NCBI GenBank assembly: GCA_041618055.1
Contig: JBFJNS010000001.1
Coordinates: 1-26,879, forward strand
Length of the DNA: 26,879 bases
From: Candidatus Binatia bacterium
GTDB taxonomy: Bacteria > Desulfobacterota > Binatia > UBA9968
Reading direction: 5' to 3'
The notes beneath the pieces are model-generated. The model was not told the origin of the DNA, made no database searches, and saw nothing but the letters and a program-made list of their open reading frames with translations. Positions 21,277 to 25,655 of the stretch are shown here, in pieces. Both the position numbers and the translations under genes were made by a program. Numbering within the stretch: the stretch's first letter is position 1; every line of letters begins with the position of its first letter.

Positions 21277-22602
21277 TTATGGAACAATGCTAGCGCGCAC
21301 CCGATCTCTCACATCGATCCTCACGAGGCCTGAACTTCGATTCTCATTTGCTCTGTTGCTGCGAATGGAAAACGGAAGATACATATAACCGCTGCCATCC
21401 ATCAGTCCGTTTCCACTAGAGTTGCTACCCCTCAGAACCGAGCTCAAGTCACCCAGCTCTGTTTTCTTGCCCGATTGAATTTCGTACTCGTACAGGTGCA
21501 GGGCACCGTCTCCGCTGCTGGTCGTTCGGGGAATCGTGAAGAGCTTGCGTTCGTCTCTGGATAGAGTCAGATTGCCGAGCCGTCGTACGGTTTCACCACG
21601 GGCAACTCTTTCTTTGGTCAGGATTGACCCCAAATCTTCCAATTTTTCGGCACGGACATTAAAACGATACAATAAACCAATGGTGTTGGCTAAGTAAATC
21701 GTCTTTCCACCTGAGGCTACAGCCATGCCCACAAAGAACCCGTTCGAGAATCGGCTGTCTGTGGGAACAAGCCGGCCCGCCTTACGGTCAAGTTTGAACA
21801 GATAGTCGGGTGCGGCCCCGTAAGCGTATGCTGCAAAAACATCGCCTTGGTTTGTCGCGATCACCACGCGGCCGACGTTTGATCGCTGGTTTTCTGGCAG
21901 GCCGCGTCCATATTTGGTCGTTCTCCCCGTGTTCAAATCATGCAGTAAGACGTTGCCGTTGGGAAAAGTCCACCCCACCAGTTTGTCCTCTTCACGCAGG
22001 ATATTCATTGCGATGATCCCCTCATGGACTATCGAAATTCCGCGGGAATCATTTTTGCTCAGATCGTTAAACTTTCCCGTGGCAAGATCGTAAGAGATGA
22101 AATGCCCACCACGGTGTTTTTCTATATTTTCCAGTGAGTGGTGGTCATGTGTGGAAAAATACATCTTACCGTTGTGCTCAAAAATATCCGAATGAACTTT
22201 CGCAACTCCCTCTGCATGCGGCCAGTGCTCGTTAGGCCCTAGGTTCTTCTCTTCTCTGAGAATTTGGCGCACGGAATTCAAAAACCGCTTTTCCCCCGAT
22301 TTTGTGTCATACGAGAAGATTAGAACATCGCCTGGTAATCCAGACCTTTCCTTTCCATTGCCTATGGCCACGTAAACGATACCGTTATGGTCTATTCCCG
22401 TGCCATGCCAAAATTCACTCAGGGTTTCCCCGCGGGGGGTAACCTCAGAAAAGTCGATGATATCGACGTTTCGAGCCCGCCCCACGTCGACCATCCCCAT
22501 GGCCAGCAGCCACGACACCAGCAGAATCGACTCTAATGCGCAGCCGCGTTTCTTAGCGGAAAAATGTATCTTGAATAGGTCGCTTTTCATGCAAGTTTGC
22601 AC
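21277..22602 (-). CDS. Hypothetical secreted beta-propeller-like protein
   Basis: Long ORF with a hydrophobic N-terminal segment and repeated blade-like motifs (IFSYDTKSG, FISYDLATG, LYRFNVRAEK, LYEYEIQSG). True start probably downstream of 22602. Confidence 0.65.
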   Translation of the reverse strand: MQTCMKSDLFKIHFSAKKRGCALESILLVSWLLAMGMVDVGRARNVDIIDFSEVTPRGETLSEFWHGTGIDHNGIVYVAIGNGKERSGLPGDVLIFSYDTKSGEKRFLNSVRQILREEKNLGPNEHWPHAEGVAKVHSDIFEHNGKMYFSTHDHHSLENIEKHRGGHFISYDLATGKFNDLSKNDSRGISIVHEGIIAMNILREEDKLVGWTFPNGNVLLHDLNTGRTTKYGRGLPENQRSNVGRVVIATNQGDVFAAYAYGAAPDYLFKLDRKAGRLVPTDSRFSNGFFVGMAVASGGKTIYLANTIGLLYRFNVRAEKLEDLGSILTKERVARGETVRRLGNLTLSRDERKLFTIPRTTSSGDGALHLYEYEIQSGKKTELGDLSSVLRGSNSSGNGLMDGSGYMYLPFSIRSNRANENRSSGLVRIDVRDRVRASIVP

Positions 22603-22751
22603 CCAACTCTTTGTCGCTTCGAAGCCCGTAATGACAGTTCTGTTCGGCGAGAGATAATGTTCGACACATTCAAGTCATGTTTTCTTAGTTTCGCGATGAC
22701 GCATTCCAAACCACACCCACCTATATCACGGGATTCCCGTCATCCCAGTGC

Positions 22752-23423
22752 CTAGCGCACCTTCCAAAGGTCCGGGGGCATTTTGATTCGCCTCTCCGCG
22801 GCCAACTTGGCTGCCCGCTCCGCGCCTGCGCGCGCATGTTCGAGTTGCCAGTTGCCGAGCTCTAATCCCAGACCATCGACCACCCGCACTCGGAAGTTGA
22901 AGTACGCGCAGACGTGCACAATGTCGAGGATATCGCGGTCGGTCCACCCTGCGTCTCTCAGCTTTTGGATATCCGCCTCCGTCATGGCGCTGGGAGTCAA
23001 GGTCAATTTCTCGGCATACTCCAGCATCGCGTATTCCGCTGCTGTCAGCTTCATCTCCCGCCAATCGGATTTTACCTGCTCTACCGCTAGATCGTCGCCG
23101 CCTTCTTGACGCAGAAACTCTGCGTGGGCGACCGTTCAGAACCGACAGTTGAGGGTGGCGGACGTCACCGTAGCGATCATTTCGCGCTGGGCCGTCGTCA
23201 GGCGCGACTCGCCGCGCATGATCTCCCACATCAGCTCCGCCGTATGCCACATCGCCTTGGGATTAAGACTGTGCAACATCGGCGGACTCACCGGCGGACC
23301 TCCCGCTTCCTTGTTGCGCTCCTGAACGAGCTTTTCTCCTTTGCGCTGCTCGCCGAGCTTTCTGTAAACCTCTTTCAATTCGCCTTCGGCTTCATGCTCG
23401 GGGATAACTTTAATCCACGGCAC
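22752..23423 (-). CDS. AhpD-like / peroxidase-related (CMD superfamily) selenoprotein, 223 aa, Sec96 encoded by TGA 23138-23136
   Basis: ORFs 23136..23423 and 22752..23054 are in one frame. Read-through gives REMIATVTSATLNCRF-U-TVAHAEFLR...YAEKLTLTP...DILDIVHVCAYFNFRVRVVDGLG, so the AhpD CxxCxxxH motif has TGA at the second Cys. GTG start with AGGAGG RBS, true stop TAG, SECIS-like hairpin downstream. Confidence 0.85.
23097..23135 (-). promoter_or_regulatory. SECIS-like hairpin 3' of the UGA in the AhpD-like gene
   Basis: ACGCAGA-GUU-UCUGCGU (23125-23109) starts 10 nt after the UGA, loop G at +18. Lower stem GUCGCC/GGCGGC. Confidence 0.7.
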
Positions 23424-23587
23424 TTTGATCTCCTCCTTTTTTTGTCATCGTTCCGGGACTCATCTCAAACCGCAGATCGATCCGGATCAAGGATCAGCGG
23501 ACGTTCATAAATCACATAATCACTTAATAGCAAGATATCTGCAAAGCATAGAGGCTCCGCCTCACTCTATTTCAGGATCATCAACAA

Positions 23588-23617
23588 TTGACATCACAGA
23601 ACCTTATCGGCTAGTCT
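23588..23617 (+). promoter_or_regulatory. Putative sigma70 promoter of the OsmC-like gene
   Basis: TTGACA (23588-23593), 18-bp spacer, TAGTCT (23612-23617). Confidence 0.45.
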
Positions 23618-23726
23618 TTTTTACAAACAGGGATGCAGGACCAGCTCAGTTTTTCAGTCGGCAGCATTGCGTTCTGAAGATTAGCCTTTCCCCGACCACG
23701 CCGTTGAACCTCTGAAAGGAGAAGCT

Positions 23727-24287
23727 ATGGAAGAGATCGTCAAAAAACTGGTTTCCCGGACAGCCAAACCTGGAGCGGGGGGGGTCCCCGGCAGCCTTCA
23801 GCCGCATCAGGACCGCGAACTGCGCGTGGCCATCGAGGCTGAAAGTCTGGACGGCATGAAAAAGCGAGCCGTCGTCACTCTTGAACAACCCGAAGGTAGC
23901 ACGTTTTCTATCATATGCGACGAAGGAGCCTATCTTGCAGGCGAGGATACCGCACCACCGCCCCTTGCCTACTTCAGCGCCGGCATCGCATTTTGAATGT
24001 TAACCCAACTGTCCCGGTTCGGGACAATCGCGAAGCTTAACGTTCAGTCAATCCGGCTCAAACAGGTCACACGGTTCTTCATGAAGGGTTCTGCTCTCCA
24101 AGGGACATTACGAGGCGGCGCCATCGGACTTGAGACGCAGATTGAAGTCGAGTCCAGCGAGCCAGCGGAGAAGATCCGCCACCTGATCAAAATGGGCGAG
24201 CAGACCTGCTTCACCCTTCAGTCGCTCGTCAATCCGGTCCCGGTCAAGACGTCGGTCGCACTGAACGGAGAGCCGCTGGTCCTATAG
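23727..24287 (+). CDS. OsmC/Ohr-like selenoprotein, 186 aa, Sec90 encoded by TGA 23994-23996
   Basis: ORFs 23727..23996 and 23997..24287 abut in frame: CDEGAYLAGEDTAPPPLAYFSAGIAF-U-MLTQL...MGEQTCFTLQSL. The TGA occupies the first conserved OsmC Cys (UxxT) and the second Cys (C161) is intact. AAGGAG RBS, true stop TAG. Confidence 0.85.
23997..24046 (+). promoter_or_regulatory. SECIS-like hairpin 3' of the UGA in the OsmC-like gene
   Basis: UGUCCCG-GUU-CGGGACA (24010-24026) starts 13 nt after the UGA, loop G at +21. Lower stem UGAAUGUUAA (23994-24003) / UUAACGUUCA (24037-24046). Confidence 0.72.
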
Positions 24288-24350
24288 GCAAGAGCCGCCC
24301 TAAAGCTCGGTTTTCACCGGTTTGTACGGCAATCCCAGACTTGTCATGGC

Positions 24351-25655
24351 TCAGCGAATCATGCTGTTCGGCAGGACCAGAGCTATTTGCGGGAATACAA
24401 CTAGAACCACGAGTCCCACGCCCATCGCAATCCAGAAGGGAAGGATACCCAGGAAGATGTCGCCCATGGAAACGTTTTCGGCGACTCCCTTGACGACGTA
24501 GACGTTTACTCCCACGGGAGGACTGATTAGCCCCATCTCGAGAACGATCACAACCAGCACGCCGAACCAAATCGGGTCGAACCCCAAGGCCAGAATCAAC
24601 GGGTGCACGATTGGAATCGTCAGTACCAGCATAGCGAAGCCCTCAAGGAACATTCCGAGCACGATGTAGATGAGCAAGATGGAAAACAGGACTGCGTAGG
24701 GCGACAGACCTAAATGGGTCAGGGCCTCGATTAAGTTGGCCGAGACGTGGGTCAGGGCAAGGAAGGGACTGAAGATAAAGGCCCCGATCAGGATGAGGAA
24801 GACAAGGGCGGTGGTGCGAACTGCTTGCAGTAAAATAGTCGAGAGCACATCCAGCGTAAACTTTCCCCGAAACAAGGTGAGCAGAAAGGCTAGACAAGCA
24901 CCGATGCCCGCAGCTTCCGTGGGTGTAAACAGGCCGGCGTAGATCCCGCCAATCGTAATAATCACGATACCGATCATGAAGCCTGCCTGCCGTGTCGCCC
25001 TCAGCTTATCGAGCCAATGGGTCGCCGGCCCCGCGGGACCGAGCTCGGGCTTGATGCGGGTCTGAATATAGATAGCCAGAATAAAAAGAGCGGTCAGGAG
25101 GAGCCCGGGCAACACGCCTGCCAGAAAAAGCCGGCCGATGGATTCTTGCGTTAAGATCGCGTAGATGACAAAGCCGGTGCTGGGCGGGATCAGAATACCC
25201 AGCGTCCCTCCAGCAGCTACACAACCGGTGGCGAGACGGGCATCATACTTGTAGCGGCGCATTTCCGGCAAGGCCACCTGGCCCATTGTCAGTGCGGAAG
25301 CAACGGATGATCCGGATAGCGCGGCGAAACCGGAACAGGCGGCGATCGTGGCCGAAGCGAGGCCACCGCGCCAGTGGCCAACCCAGGCGTAGGCGGCGGC
25401 GTATAGATCGCGGCTCATCCCCGAAACAGTGGCTAGATTTCCCATAAAGATAAAGAGGGGGATAACGATCAGCTCGTAGTTGGAGGAAACGACGAACGGC
25501 TCGGTGGCGAGGAGAGCAAGAGCCGCCGTCCAGCCGTTGGCGAAGCCGAAGCCAACGAAGCCGACCAGTAGCATGGCGATGCCGACCGGCATGCGGAGCG
25601 CGAGAAGGAAAAGAAGCCCCGCAAAACCGGCGATGCCGAGGGCCGTCGGTGTCAT
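24351..25655 (-). CDS. dctM: TRAP transporter large permease
   Basis: IPLFIFMGNL, SGSSVASA, GGTLGILIPPS, FTPTEAA, DPIWFGV, GLISPPVGVNVYV. Confidence 0.95.
   Translation of the reverse strand: MTPTALGIAGFAGLLFLLALRMPVGIAMLLVGFVGFGFANGWTAALALLATEPFVVSSNYELIVIPLFIFMGNLATVSGMSRDLYAAAYAWVGHWRGGLASATIAACSGFAALSGSSVASALTMGQVALPEMRRYKYDARLATGCVAAGGTLGILIPPSTGFVIYAILTQESIGRLFLAGVLPGLLLTALFILAIYIQTRIKPELGPAGPATHWLDKLRATRQAGFMIGIVIITIGGIYAGLFTPTEAAGIGACLAFLLTLFRGKFTLDVLSTILLQAVRTTALVFLILIGAFIFSPFLALTHVSANLIEALTHLGLSPYAVLFSILLIYIVLGMFLEGFAMLVLTIPIVHPLILALGFDPIWFGVLVVIVLEMGLISPPVGVNVYVVKGVAENVSMGDIFLGILPFWIAMGVGLVVLVVFPQIALVLPNSMIR

What the first reader, a model, noticed from the sequence alone, without database searches (positions are those of the whole stretch)
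23097..24046. Both UGA codons are followed by the same hairpin design (7-bp stem, GUU loop): possible lineage-specific SECIS consensus
Seen: ACGCAGA-GUU-UCUGCGU (10 nt after UGA) and UGUCCCG-GUU-CGGGACA (13 nt after UGA). The stem sequences are unrelated but stem length and loop are identical, in unrelated genes on opposite strands. The OsmC-like element also has a 10-bp lower stem that sequesters the UGA. Established: bacterial SECIS elements lie just 3' of the UGA with a G at the start of the apical loop, and SelB contacts a GU at the tip of the E. coli fdhF SECIS. Inference: convergence on a SelB-binding motif that can be used to find more selenoproteins in this lineage.
Basis: partly seen in the sequence, partly recalled or inferred. 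Interest (0 to 1): 0.66.

Follow-up and report, generated by a model that had tools for sequence, protein, structure and literature searches.

The report
Two ordinary bacterial SECIS hairpins
The two matching hairpins are genuine selenocysteine-insertion signals in two selenoprotein genes, but their shared design is the standard bacterial one described in 2005, not a signature of this lineage.

Summary
An AhpD-like gene (22752-23423, minus strand, motif CRFU) and an OsmC-like gene (23727-24287, plus strand) each carry one in-frame UGA. A perfect 7-bp stem with a GUU loop follows 10 nt and 13 nt later.

These hairpins are SECIS elements:
- They are conserved with compensatory base changes in about 100 Sec-encoding homologues.
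- They are absent from most Cys-encoding homologues.
- 12 of 16 independently identified selenoprotein genes of the same genome have the same kind of hairpin (5-9 bp stem, G[U/G]N three-base loop, 10-17 nt after UGA). The background rate is 0.34% of codons.

The "lineage-specific" reading is not supported:
- The design satisfies every rule of the published bacterial SECIS model: G[G|U]N loop core, 16-37 nt from UGA to loop, MFE at or below -7.5 kcal/mol.
- GUU is only one variant in this genome; GGC, GUA, AGGU and others also occur.
- Equivalent three-base loops sit at the same place in AhpD-like genes of several other phyla.
- The OsmC-like gene's 10-bp lower stem is not conserved, even in 88-91% identical orthologues.

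The motif did recover more selenoprotein genes. One is RtcB with Sec at its catalytic Cys, which I did not find reported. On its own the hairpin is too common to be a specific search tool.

The parts
22752..23423 (-). AhpD-like / peroxidase-related selenoprotein gene (223 codons, GTG start, motif C93-R-F-U96)
   Evidence: Read-through translation. TIGR01926 scores 128.4 bits against a cut-off of 81.8, and Pfam CMD spans the UGA. All 29 mapped homologues in related genomes carry TGA at the same codon.
23136..23138 (-). Sec-UGA codon of the AhpD-like gene (U96)
   Evidence: In frame. It aligns with TGA in 105 homologues and with TGC/TGT in 4 Cys forms.
23109..23125 (-). SECIS apical hairpin A: ACGCAGA-GUU-UCUGCGU, 10 nt after UGA, 17 nt from UGA to loop
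   Evidence: -8.2 kcal/mol. 99% of cells are paired in 30 homologues, 2 pairs show compensatory changes, and 0 of 500 shuffles reach the covariation score. It is the RNAalifold consensus.
23097..23132 (-). Possible lower helix flanking hairpin A. Arms: GUCGCC (23132-23127) pairing with GGCGGC (23102-23097) or, three bases further 3', GGCGAC (23099-23094)
   Evidence: It appears in the MFE folds of most close orthologues. In the register counted on the alignment (5' arm paired with GGCGAC at 23099-23094), 84% of cells pair across 21 orthologues, with one compensatory pair. It is not in the RNAalifold consensus, so support is weak.
23424..23726 (.). Divergent intergenic region between the two head-to-head selenoprotein genes
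   Evidence: Gene coordinates. Not analysed further.
23727..24287 (+). OsmC-like selenoprotein gene (186 codons, motif GIAF-U90-MLTQ)
   Evidence: Read-through translation. NF041052 OsmC_like_Se scores 172.4 bits against a cut-off of 95. TGA is conserved in nearly all homologues in 59 of 60 related genomes.
23994..23996 (+). Sec-UGA codon of the OsmC-like gene (U90)
   Evidence: It aligns with TGC/TGT in 20 Cys paralogues.
24010..24026 (+). SECIS apical hairpin B: UGUCCCG-GUU-CGGGACA, 13 nt after UGA, 20 nt from UGA to loop
   Evidence: -9.8 kcal/mol. It is the RNAalifold consensus of 23 homologues. The helix is 92% paired and 3 pairs show compensatory changes.
23994..24046 (+). 10-bp lower stem (23994-24003 pairing with 24037-24046) that would sequester the UGA. 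Present in this copy only.
   Evidence: It folds in the window sequence. Only 51.7% of cells pair across 23 homologues, and five of the ten pairs are unpaired in 15-22 sequences, including the 88-91% identical orthologues.

Best explanation
Both hairpins are canonical bacterial selenocysteine insertion sequences (bSECIS) in two known selenoprotein families, AhpD-like (CxxU) and OsmC-like.

Mechanism (inferred from the E. coli and Moorella systems, not tested here): when the ribosome places UGA in the A site, the 17-nt hairpin 10-13 nt downstream sits at the mRNA entrance. The C-terminal winged-helix domain of SelB, carrying GTP and Sec-tRNA(Sec), binds the helix backbone and the exposed G and U of the loop. 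Sec is then delivered before RF2 can terminate.

The shared design reflects convergence on this common SelB recognition core. It is a perfect 7-bp helix with a G-U-N three-base loop and 17-20 nt from UGA to loop. It is the minimal form of the general bacterial consensus, and GUU is simply the commonest of several allowed loops in this genome.

Shown here: the position, the conservation, the compensatory changes, the restriction to Sec-encoding forms, the recurrence across the genome's selenoprotein genes, and the presence of tRNA-Sec in the genome and SelB in relatives.

Inferred: SelB binding and actual Sec insertion.
For: 1. Both genes are members of curated selenoprotein families, and the family domain spans the UGA.
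2. All four rules of the published bSECIS model are met (PMC13188914): a 3-nt loop, a 7-bp stem, a G[G|U]N loop, 17 and 20 nt from UGA to loop, and -8.2 and -9.8 kcal/mol. The geometry equals the 17-nt minimal E. coli element placed 11 nt from UGA (PMC8659212).
3. Same genome: coding potential plus NCBIfam gave 16 selenoprotein genes without using hairpins. Of these, 11 have a stem of at least 6 bp with a G[U/G]N three-base loop 8-18 nt after UGA, and 12 if 5-bp stems count. The background is 0.34% of coding codons, 0.34% of Cys codons, and 3 of 721 true TGA stops.
4. The GUU loop falls in all three codon registers in six unrelated families, derived from the spacer and stem lengths (rhodanese and MerB-like 2). 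This points to selection at the RNA level.
5. AhpD-like family: the hairpin is at +10 in all 29 relatives and in 69 of 76 Sec forms from many phyla. Covariation is C-G to G-C and A-U to G-C.
6. OsmC-like family: 27 of 30 Sec homologues have the hairpin against 1 of 20 Cys paralogues.
7. L093, a Cys form, encodes the same HAEFLR peptide with other codons and has no hairpin.
8. RtcB orthologues at 77-88% identity: 11 of 11 Sec forms keep the hairpin. Cys forms keep it only when they sit next to Sec forms on the tree, and lose it on the deeper Cys branches.
9. A tRNA-Sec gene is present. Full-length SelB is present in 17 of 19 relatives.
Against: - No experiment shows SelB binding or Sec insertion.
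- selA, selB and selD were not found above their cut-offs in this 66%-complete assembly.
- Whole-segment folding z-scores are weak.
- Three of nine Cys-encoding RtcB orthologues keep an intact hairpin. The hairpin can therefore persist through inheritance and the codon choice of the same peptide, without a UGA.
- Four of 16 validated genes have other loops (AGGU, AGUUG, CGUGC, CAGUGC). Rfam has no matching family.
- Homologues are related to one another, so the Fisher and shuffle statistics are overstated.
Confidence: 0.88

Rival explanations
1. One reading: the 7-bp stem with a GUU loop is a SECIS consensus peculiar to this lineage. It would reflect a SelB with narrowed specificity and would distinguish this lineage from other bacteria.
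For: GUU is the commonest loop in this genome. It accounts for 6 of the 12 three-base loops, in six unrelated families, against a naive expectation of 1 in 8. Stems are unusually regular: perfect, 5-9 bp, with no bulged U. In the AhpD-like family, GUU loops occur only in the records labelled Syntrophobacter, Binatia or deltaproteobacterium.
Against: - The design is the core of the general bacterial model, G[G|U]N closed by a base pair.
- In the same genome, GGC (two GrdB, AhpD-like 2, GST-like), GUA (OsmC-like 2, UGSC), AGGU (HdrA) and longer loops serve equally.
- The OsmC-like genes of another family in the same order use GUA.
- GGC, GUC and GGU three-base loops with 6-8-bp stems sit at the same site in AhpD-like genes of Dehalococcoidia, Ardenticatenaceae, Halanaerobiaceae, Symbiobacteriaceae, Pyrinomonadaceae and Udaeobacter.
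- The GUU or GGC choice follows the encoded residues (Glu-Phe or Glu-Ala). This is phylogenetic signal from a single gene family.
Confidence: 0.1
2. The hairpins are by-products of conserved peptide motifs and inherited codon choice (HAEFLR, SRFGT). They have no role in decoding.
For: Both hairpins lie over conserved peptide segments. Three Cys-encoding RtcB orthologues keep the identical hairpin.
Against: - Compensatory double changes keep the pairing.
- A Cys form encoding the same HAEFLR peptide has no hairpin (L093).
- 19 of 20 Cys OsmC paralogues have no hairpin.
- The same design appears in 12 unrelated Sec genes in three reading registers.
- Cys RtcB branches distant from Sec forms have lost it.
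Confidence: 0.02

Closest known systems
Bacterial SECIS consensus model (bSECISearch, Zhang and Gladyshev 2005, as summarised in PMC13188914 Fig. 2)
   Same: It lies in the coding region just 3' of UGA. The apical loop is 3-9 nt and the upper stem 4-16 bp. [quoted passage not shown] UGA to loop is 16-37 nt, and MFE is at or below -7.5 kcal/mol. Both window elements meet every rule.
   Different: Nothing qualitative. These are the minimal version, with no extra loop nucleotides and a perfect helix.
E. coli fdhF SECIS (minimal 17-nt upper hairpin placed 11 nt from UGA, with G23/U24 in the loop and a bulged U17)
   Same: The hairpin is 17 nt and starts 10-13 nt from UGA. G and U are adjacent at the tip of the loop (PMC8659212).
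   Different: There is no bulged U in the 5' arm, and the loop is the three-base GUU rather than the four-base GGUC. A GGUC/GGUCU form does occur in some homologues, such as RtcB L191, L197 and L203 and the AhpD-like genes of Acidimicrobiia and Planctomycetes.
Published SECIS elements of AhpD-like and OsmC-like selenoproteins from the Sargasso Sea metagenome (PMC1088965, Figs 3-4)
   Same: The two protein families are the same. [quoted passage not shown]
   Different: The organisms differ (marine metagenome there, a Syntrophobacter/Binatia-like assembly here). The figures are not held, so I could not compare base by base.

Membership tests
Bacterial SECIS (bSECIS consensus model) | Stem-loop inside the coding region immediately 3' of an in-frame UGA that aligns with Cys or Sec in homologues | tested here: met
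   The UGA aligns with TGA in more than 130 homologues and with TGC/TGT in 24 Cys forms.
Bacterial SECIS (bSECIS consensus model) | Apical loop of 3-9 nt and upper stem of 4-16 bp | tested here: met
   Both elements have a 3-nt loop and 7 Watson-Crick pairs.
Bacterial SECIS (bSECIS consensus model) | G in one of the first two loop positions, typically G[G|U]N closed by a base pair | tested here: met
   The loop is GUU in both, closed by A-U in the AhpD-like element and G-C in the OsmC-like element. G is invariant in the 30-sequence alignment.
Bacterial SECIS (bSECIS consensus model) | 16-37 nt between UGA and the apical loop | tested here: met
   17 nt (10+7) and 20 nt (13+7). The 12 three-base-loop elements among the 16 validated genes of this genome span 17-23 nt.
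Bacterial SECIS (bSECIS consensus model) | MFE at or below -7.5 kcal/mol | tested here: met
   -8.2 and -9.8 kcal/mol for the 17-nt hairpins alone.
Bacterial SECIS (bSECIS consensus model) | Bound by SelB and required for Sec insertion at the UGA | not testable with these tools
   Indirect evidence only. tRNA-Sec is in the genome and SelB is above its cut-off in 17 of 19 relatives. SelB was not found in the 66%-complete assembly itself.
E. coli fdhF-type SECIS | Bulged U in the 5' arm of the upper stem, and a GGUC four-base loop | tested here: not met
   The stems are perfect with no bulge, and the loop is GUU.
   Loops in the 16 validated genes of this genome: six GUU, four GGC, two GUA, and one each of AGGU, AGUUG, CGUGC and CAGUGC.
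   G[G/U]N three-base loops with 6-8-bp stems occur at +9 to +12 in AhpD-like genes of at least six other phylum-level groups. The design is also described as the majority pattern in the published model.
AhpD-like selenoprotein (TIGR01926, CxxU) | Score above the curated cut-off, and a CxxU motif at the redox site | tested here: met
   128.4 bits against a cut-off of 81.8; motif C93-R-F-U96.
OsmC-related (seleno)protein (NF041052) | Score above the curated cut-off, and Sec at the peroxidatic Cys position (UxxT) | tested here: met
   172.4 bits against a cut-off of 95; motif U90-M-L-T. The UxxT form is listed in PMC13188914.

The most novel reading that the evidence does not exclude
SelB of this Syntrophobacter/Binatia-like lineage may have settled on an unusually compact and regular SECIS: a perfect 5-9-bp helix, a G[U/G]N three-base loop with GUU favoured, and no bulge. 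Combined with open-reading-frame context, such a regular element could serve as a lineage-tuned search model. That model already exposes selenoprotein forms absent from the 2026 catalogue of prokaryotic selenoprotein families I consulted, namely RtcB with Sec at its catalytic Cys and a MetE-like H-x-U protein.
Probability: 0.15. Interest if true: 0.45.

Novelty: new member of a known kind. Interest (0 to 1): 0.25.

Why it matters
For the finding itself, little changes. It confirms that two gene fragments which annotation would split at the stop codon are single selenoprotein genes with standard SECIS elements. It also shows that the apparent convergence is the expected signature of SelB recognition.

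Practical value:
- It adds two well-supported examples, with covariation and Cys-form controls, of the minimal bacterial SECIS.
- It shows that the hairpin alone is a poor search tool. The relaxed pattern follows TGA 3.1 times per 1000, the same as after other triplets. It becomes useful only with reading-frame context.
- The genome is selenoprotein-rich, with at least 18 such genes in a 66%-complete assembly.
- Following the motif turned up a natural Sec-containing RtcB RNA ligase, conserved in at least 11 related species. This may be an uncatalogued selenoprotein form and deserves its own follow-up.

Tried and rejected
- **Rfam.** A scan of 22700-24400 with permissive thresholds gave no match.
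- **Cross-family covariance model.** I did not build one. The elements share no sequence and have variable spacers, so a MAFFT alignment of them would be meaningless. I ran an explicit pattern scan in Python instead.
- **Raw pattern enrichment.** The relaxed hairpin follows TGA 3.11 times per 1000. It follows nine other triplets 2.35-3.42 times per 1000. There is no bulk enrichment, so I dropped the idea that the motif alone marks Sec codons.
- **fdhA, selD and selA as named test cases.** No Sec-containing FdhA, and no SelD or SelA above its cut-off, is present in the held part of the assembly. I used GrdB, HdrA, Prx-like and UGSC as the known selenoproteins instead.
- **OsmC_like_Se in five distant genomes** reached through AhpD-like loci. 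Only stop-free, weak matches were found, so there is no cross-phylum test for hairpin B.
- **Candidates not validated.** C67, C36, C430 and C295 matched no family. In C64 the VapC domain ends before the TGA. C102 (BNR/Ycf48-like, motif CFUG) remains doubtful.
- **TGA as a sense codon genome-wide.** Rejected: 721 long ORFs end in TGA.
- **Global MFE z-scores as evidence.** Too weak to use.
Full report
**What is there**

The window is contig C1 of a 3.15-Mb, 544-contig, 66%-complete assembly with 55% G+C. Two head-to-head genes each contain one in-frame TGA.

- Gene A (22752-23423, minus strand) reads through to a 223-aa CMD/AhpD-like "peroxidase-related enzyme". TIGR01926 scores 128 bits against a cut-off of 81.8. 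The redox motif is C-R-F-U96.
- Gene B (23727-24287, plus strand) reads through to a 186-aa OsmC-related (seleno)protein. NF041052 scores 172 bits against a cut-off of 95. Sec is at position 90.

Both families are in the published catalogue of prokaryotic selenoproteins, as AhpD-like CxxU and OsmC-like UxxT (PMC13188914).

**Check of the observation**

On the minus strand, UGA (23138-23136) is followed by 10 nt and then ACGCAGA-GUU-UCUGCGU (23125-23109). On the plus strand, UGA (23994-23996) is followed by 13 nt and then UGUCCCG-GUU-CGGGACA (24010-24026). RNAfold recovers both hairpins in 71-nt and 111-121-nt contexts. Folded alone they give -8.2 and -9.8 kcal/mol. The OsmC-like lower stem (23994-24003 with 24037-24046) also folds. 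Whole-segment z-scores are modest at -0.57 and -2.14, so stability by itself proves nothing.

The exact design is rare. Only 15 hairpins in the genome have 7 Watson-Crick pairs and a GUU loop, counting both strands. Four of them sit 10-16 nt after an in-frame TGA with open frames on both sides: the two in the window, RtcB on C101, and a glutaredoxin-like gene on C380.

**Is it the genome's SECIS?**

I listed selenoprotein genes without using hairpins. I took TGA codons flanked by open, coding-like sequence in the same frame. I picked 20 of these by eye from the flanking peptide, noticing some hairpins while doing so. NCBIfam then tested whether a family domain spans the TGA. Together with the two window genes, 16 genes passed:

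- AhpD-like A and AhpD-like 2
- OsmC-like B and OsmC-like 2
- a YciW-related gene
- RtcB
- a Grx-like gene
- a rhodanese-related gene
- two GrdB-family genes
- a Prx-like gene
- two MerB/SaoL-like genes
- HdrA
- a GST-like gene
- a UGSC-family gene

Their proximal hairpins, given as spacer / stem / loop:

| Gene | Spacer (nt) | Stem (bp) | Loop |
|---|---|---|---|
| AhpD-like A | 10 | 7 | GUU |
| OsmC-like B | 13 | 7 | GUU |
| RtcB | 13-14 | 8-9 | GUU |
| Grx-like | 15 | 8 | GUU |
| Rhodanese-related | 17 | 5 | GUU |
| MerB-like 2 | 11 | 7 | GUU |
| OsmC-like 2 | 14 | 6 | GUA |
| UGSC | 11 | 8 | GUA |
| GrdB-1 | 11 | 7 | GGC |
| GrdB-2 | 12 | 6 | GGC |
| AhpD-like 2 | 10 | 7 | GGC |
| GST-like | 11 | 8 | GGC |
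| MerB-like 1 | 11 | 6 | CGUGC |
| Prx-like | 11 | 5 | AGUUG |
| HdrA | 15 | 7 | AGGU |
| YciW-related | 11 | 6 | CAGUGC |

So 11 of 16 match [quoted passage not shown], and 12 of 16 if 5-bp stems count. The background is 0.34% of 574,246 in-frame codons of long ORFs, 0.34% of Cys codons, and 3 of 721 genuine TGA stops.

The GUU loop lies in all three codon registers: G|UU in AhpD-like A, OsmC-like B and Grx-like; GU|U in RtcB and rhodanese; GUU| in MerB-like 2. This is derived from the spacer and stem lengths (rhodanese and MerB-like 2). It argues for selection on the RNA rather than on a shared peptide.

**Conservation and covariation**

AhpD-like family:
- All 29 homologues mapped in 60 related genomes have TGA at the same codon. 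All have a 7-bp hairpin starting 10 nt later, with loop GUU, GGC or GUC.
- A scan of species-representative genomes gave 80 more loci from many phyla: 76 Sec forms and 4 Cys forms.
- 69 of the 76 Sec forms have a hairpin there. The loops include 14 GGC, 21 CGGGU or CGGGA, 8 GUU, 4 GGUCU, 3 GGUC and 3 GGU.
- On a 30-sequence alignment, 99% of cells pair. Two pairs switch C-G to G-C (13 sequences) and A-U to G-C (7 sequences). No shuffle out of 500 reaches the covariation score, and sliding the partner columns collapses pairing to 29-61%.

OsmC-like family:
- 27 of 30 Sec homologues from three families of the same order have a hairpin of at least 6 bp, with loop GUU, GUA or GUC.
- RNAalifold returns only this helix as the consensus. 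It is 92% paired, and three pairs show compensatory changes.

Test 1: do Cys homologues keep the hairpin?

| Family | Sec forms with hairpin | Cys forms with hairpin |
|---|---|---|
| OsmC-like | 27 of 30 | 1 of 20 (its loop is CCGC) |
| AhpD-like | 69 of 76 | 0 of 4 |
| RtcB | 11 of 11 | 3 of 9 intact, 1 weakened |

In the AhpD-like family, L093 encodes the identical HAEFLR peptide with other codons and a downstream MFE of -0.8 kcal/mol.

RtcB gives the sharpest test, because Sec and Cys orthologues of 77-88% identity coexist in the same family. Five of the nine Cys forms lack the hairpin, counting L194, where a Val-to-Ala codon change disrupts it. On a maximum-likelihood tree, three of the four Cys forms that retain some form of it (L187, L190, L195) sit beside Sec forms; L187 is sister to L191 with 100/97 support. 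The fourth, L196, is sister to the Cys form L194 inside a mixed Sec/Cys clade. The deeper Cys branches (L198/L200, L202, L204) have lost it. I read this as repeated recent Sec/Cys switching with relic hairpins that decay. It is also a warning that a hairpin without a UGA can persist for a while.

All homologue counts involve related sequences, so the p-values are upper bounds on significance.

Test 2: do known selenoproteins of the same genome have it? GrdB (two genes), HdrA, Prx-like and UGSC do, with G-containing loops. Sec-containing FdhA and SelD are not present in the held contigs, so they could not be tested.

**Is it lineage-specific?**

No. The published bacterial model requires four things (PMC13188914 Fig. 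2; see also PMC1088965):
- a 3-9-nt loop on a 4-16-bp stem;
- a G in the first two loop positions, "mostly" as N1(0-1)G[G|U]N N2(0-1)N(0-2) with N1 and N2 paired;
- 16-37 nt from UGA to loop;
- MFE at or below -7.5 kcal/mol.

The window elements are the bare core of that pattern: GUU closed by A-U or G-C, 17 and 20 nt from UGA. Their geometry equals the 17-nt minimal E. coli element set 11 nt from UGA, with G23 and U24 at its tip (PMC8659212).

Within this genome GUU is only the commonest loop. Outside the lineage, G[G/U]N three-base loops on 6-8-bp stems occupy the same site of AhpD-like genes. They occur in records labelled Dehalococcoidia, Ardenticatenaceae, Halanaerobiaceae, Symbiobacteriaceae, Pyrinomonadaceae, Udaeobacter and others.

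In that family GUU itself is confined to records labelled Syntrophobacter, Syntrophobacteraceae, Binatia or deltaproteobacterium. It also tracks the encoded Glu-Phe pair, whereas Glu-Ala gives GGC. That is the phylogeny of one gene family, not evidence of a lineage rule.

A mild GUU preference in this genome (6 of 12 three-base loops) remains possible and untested against other phyla.

**Lower stems**

The 10-bp stem that would sequester the OsmC-like UGA pairs in only 51.7% of cells over 23 homologues. It is broken even in the 88-91% identical orthologues L024-L026. It is a feature of this copy with no conserved role.

Hairpin A has a possible 6-bp lower helix, GUCGCC with GGCGAC. It pairs in 84% of cells over 21 orthologues and has one compensatory pair. 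It is not in the RNAalifold consensus, so support is weak.

**Can the motif find selenoproteins?**

Partly.
- The exact pattern has a precision of 4 in 15 and finds 4 of about 18 genes.
- The relaxed pattern follows 306 TGAs, which is no more frequent than after other triplets.
- Combined with open frames and family checks, the relaxed pattern added a second GST-like gene (C100: 10 nt / 9 bp / GGA). It also added a MetE-like gene with H-I-U at the zinc-ligand motif (C481: 12 / 7 / GGU; NF005085 spans the TGA) and a probable DUF411 gene (C414).

**Machinery and lineage**

- One tRNA-Sec gene is present in the assembly.
- selB, selA and selD are not found above their cut-offs in this incomplete assembly.
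- SelB is present at full length in 17 of 19 relatives.
- The closest named records are assemblies labelled Candidatus Binatia, Syntrophobacteraceae and Syntrophobacter.

**Verdict**

The elements are canonical bacterial SECIS hairpins in two known selenoprotein families. Their similarity is the expected convergence on the SelB recognition core, not a lineage-specific consensus. The main side product is a natural Sec-containing RtcB.

Noticed in passing
G000 contig C101:2222-3670 (+), locus L016; orthologues L185-L204: The RNA ligase RtcB has an in-frame TGA at the catalytic, metal-binding Cys. The motif is GYDIN-U-GVRL, and U100 aligns with the Cys of GYDINCGVRL in the solved Pyrococcus RtcB. 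Pfam RtcB scores 566 bits across the TGA. A GUU SECIS hairpin follows. The TGA is conserved in 11 of the 20 closest orthologues, and 9 have Cys, with at least 4 switches on the tree. RtcB is absent from the selenoprotein table of the 2026 review. Full-text searches found only an engineered Sec98 RtcB.
   Followed up: partly
G000 contig C481:87-1187 (-), locus L216: A cobalamin-independent methionine-synthase-like protein (NF005085, 232 bits, match spanning residues 4-366) has TGA at residue 241 in F-H-I-U-R-G-N. From my own knowledge of MetE, not tested here, this looks like the His-x-Cys zinc-ligand position. A 7-bp stem with a GGU loop follows 12 nt later. Conservation in relatives was not checked.
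   Followed up: partly
G000, whole assembly (contigs C1, C11, C52, C55, C79, C100, C101, C103, C111, C143, C189, C262, C342, C362, C380, C383, C481): At least 18 family-validated selenoprotein genes occur in a 66%-complete assembly. They include two GrdB-family genes, HdrA, two MerB/SaoL-like genes, UGSC, a rhodanese-related gene, Prx-like, Grx-like, two GST-like genes, three AhpD/YciW-like genes and two OsmC-like genes. This is a very selenoprotein-rich organism.
   Followed up: partly
G000 contig C414:2423-2974 (-), locus L215; G000 contig C102:6564-7478 (+), locus L006: Two unvalidated candidates. The first is a DUF411 protein with T-U-G-C-C-S-S-W upstream of the Pfam match and a 7-bp stem with a GGU loop. 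The second is a BNR/Ycf48-like protein with C-F-U-G and an E. coli-like GGUC loop.
   Followed up: partly
Relatives: G013:C860:2356-5802, G009:C119:3836-6890, G023:C4:124974-133906: AhpD-like selenoprotein genes, often several paralogues in a row, lie within a few kb of OsmC-like selenoprotein genes in several related genomes. The pairing seen in the window therefore recurs (coordinates).
   Followed up: no
window 21277-22602 (-) and 24351-25655 (-): The two selenoprotein genes are flanked by a 441-aa ORF and a 434-aa, very hydrophobic ORF. Neither was examined.
   Followed up: no
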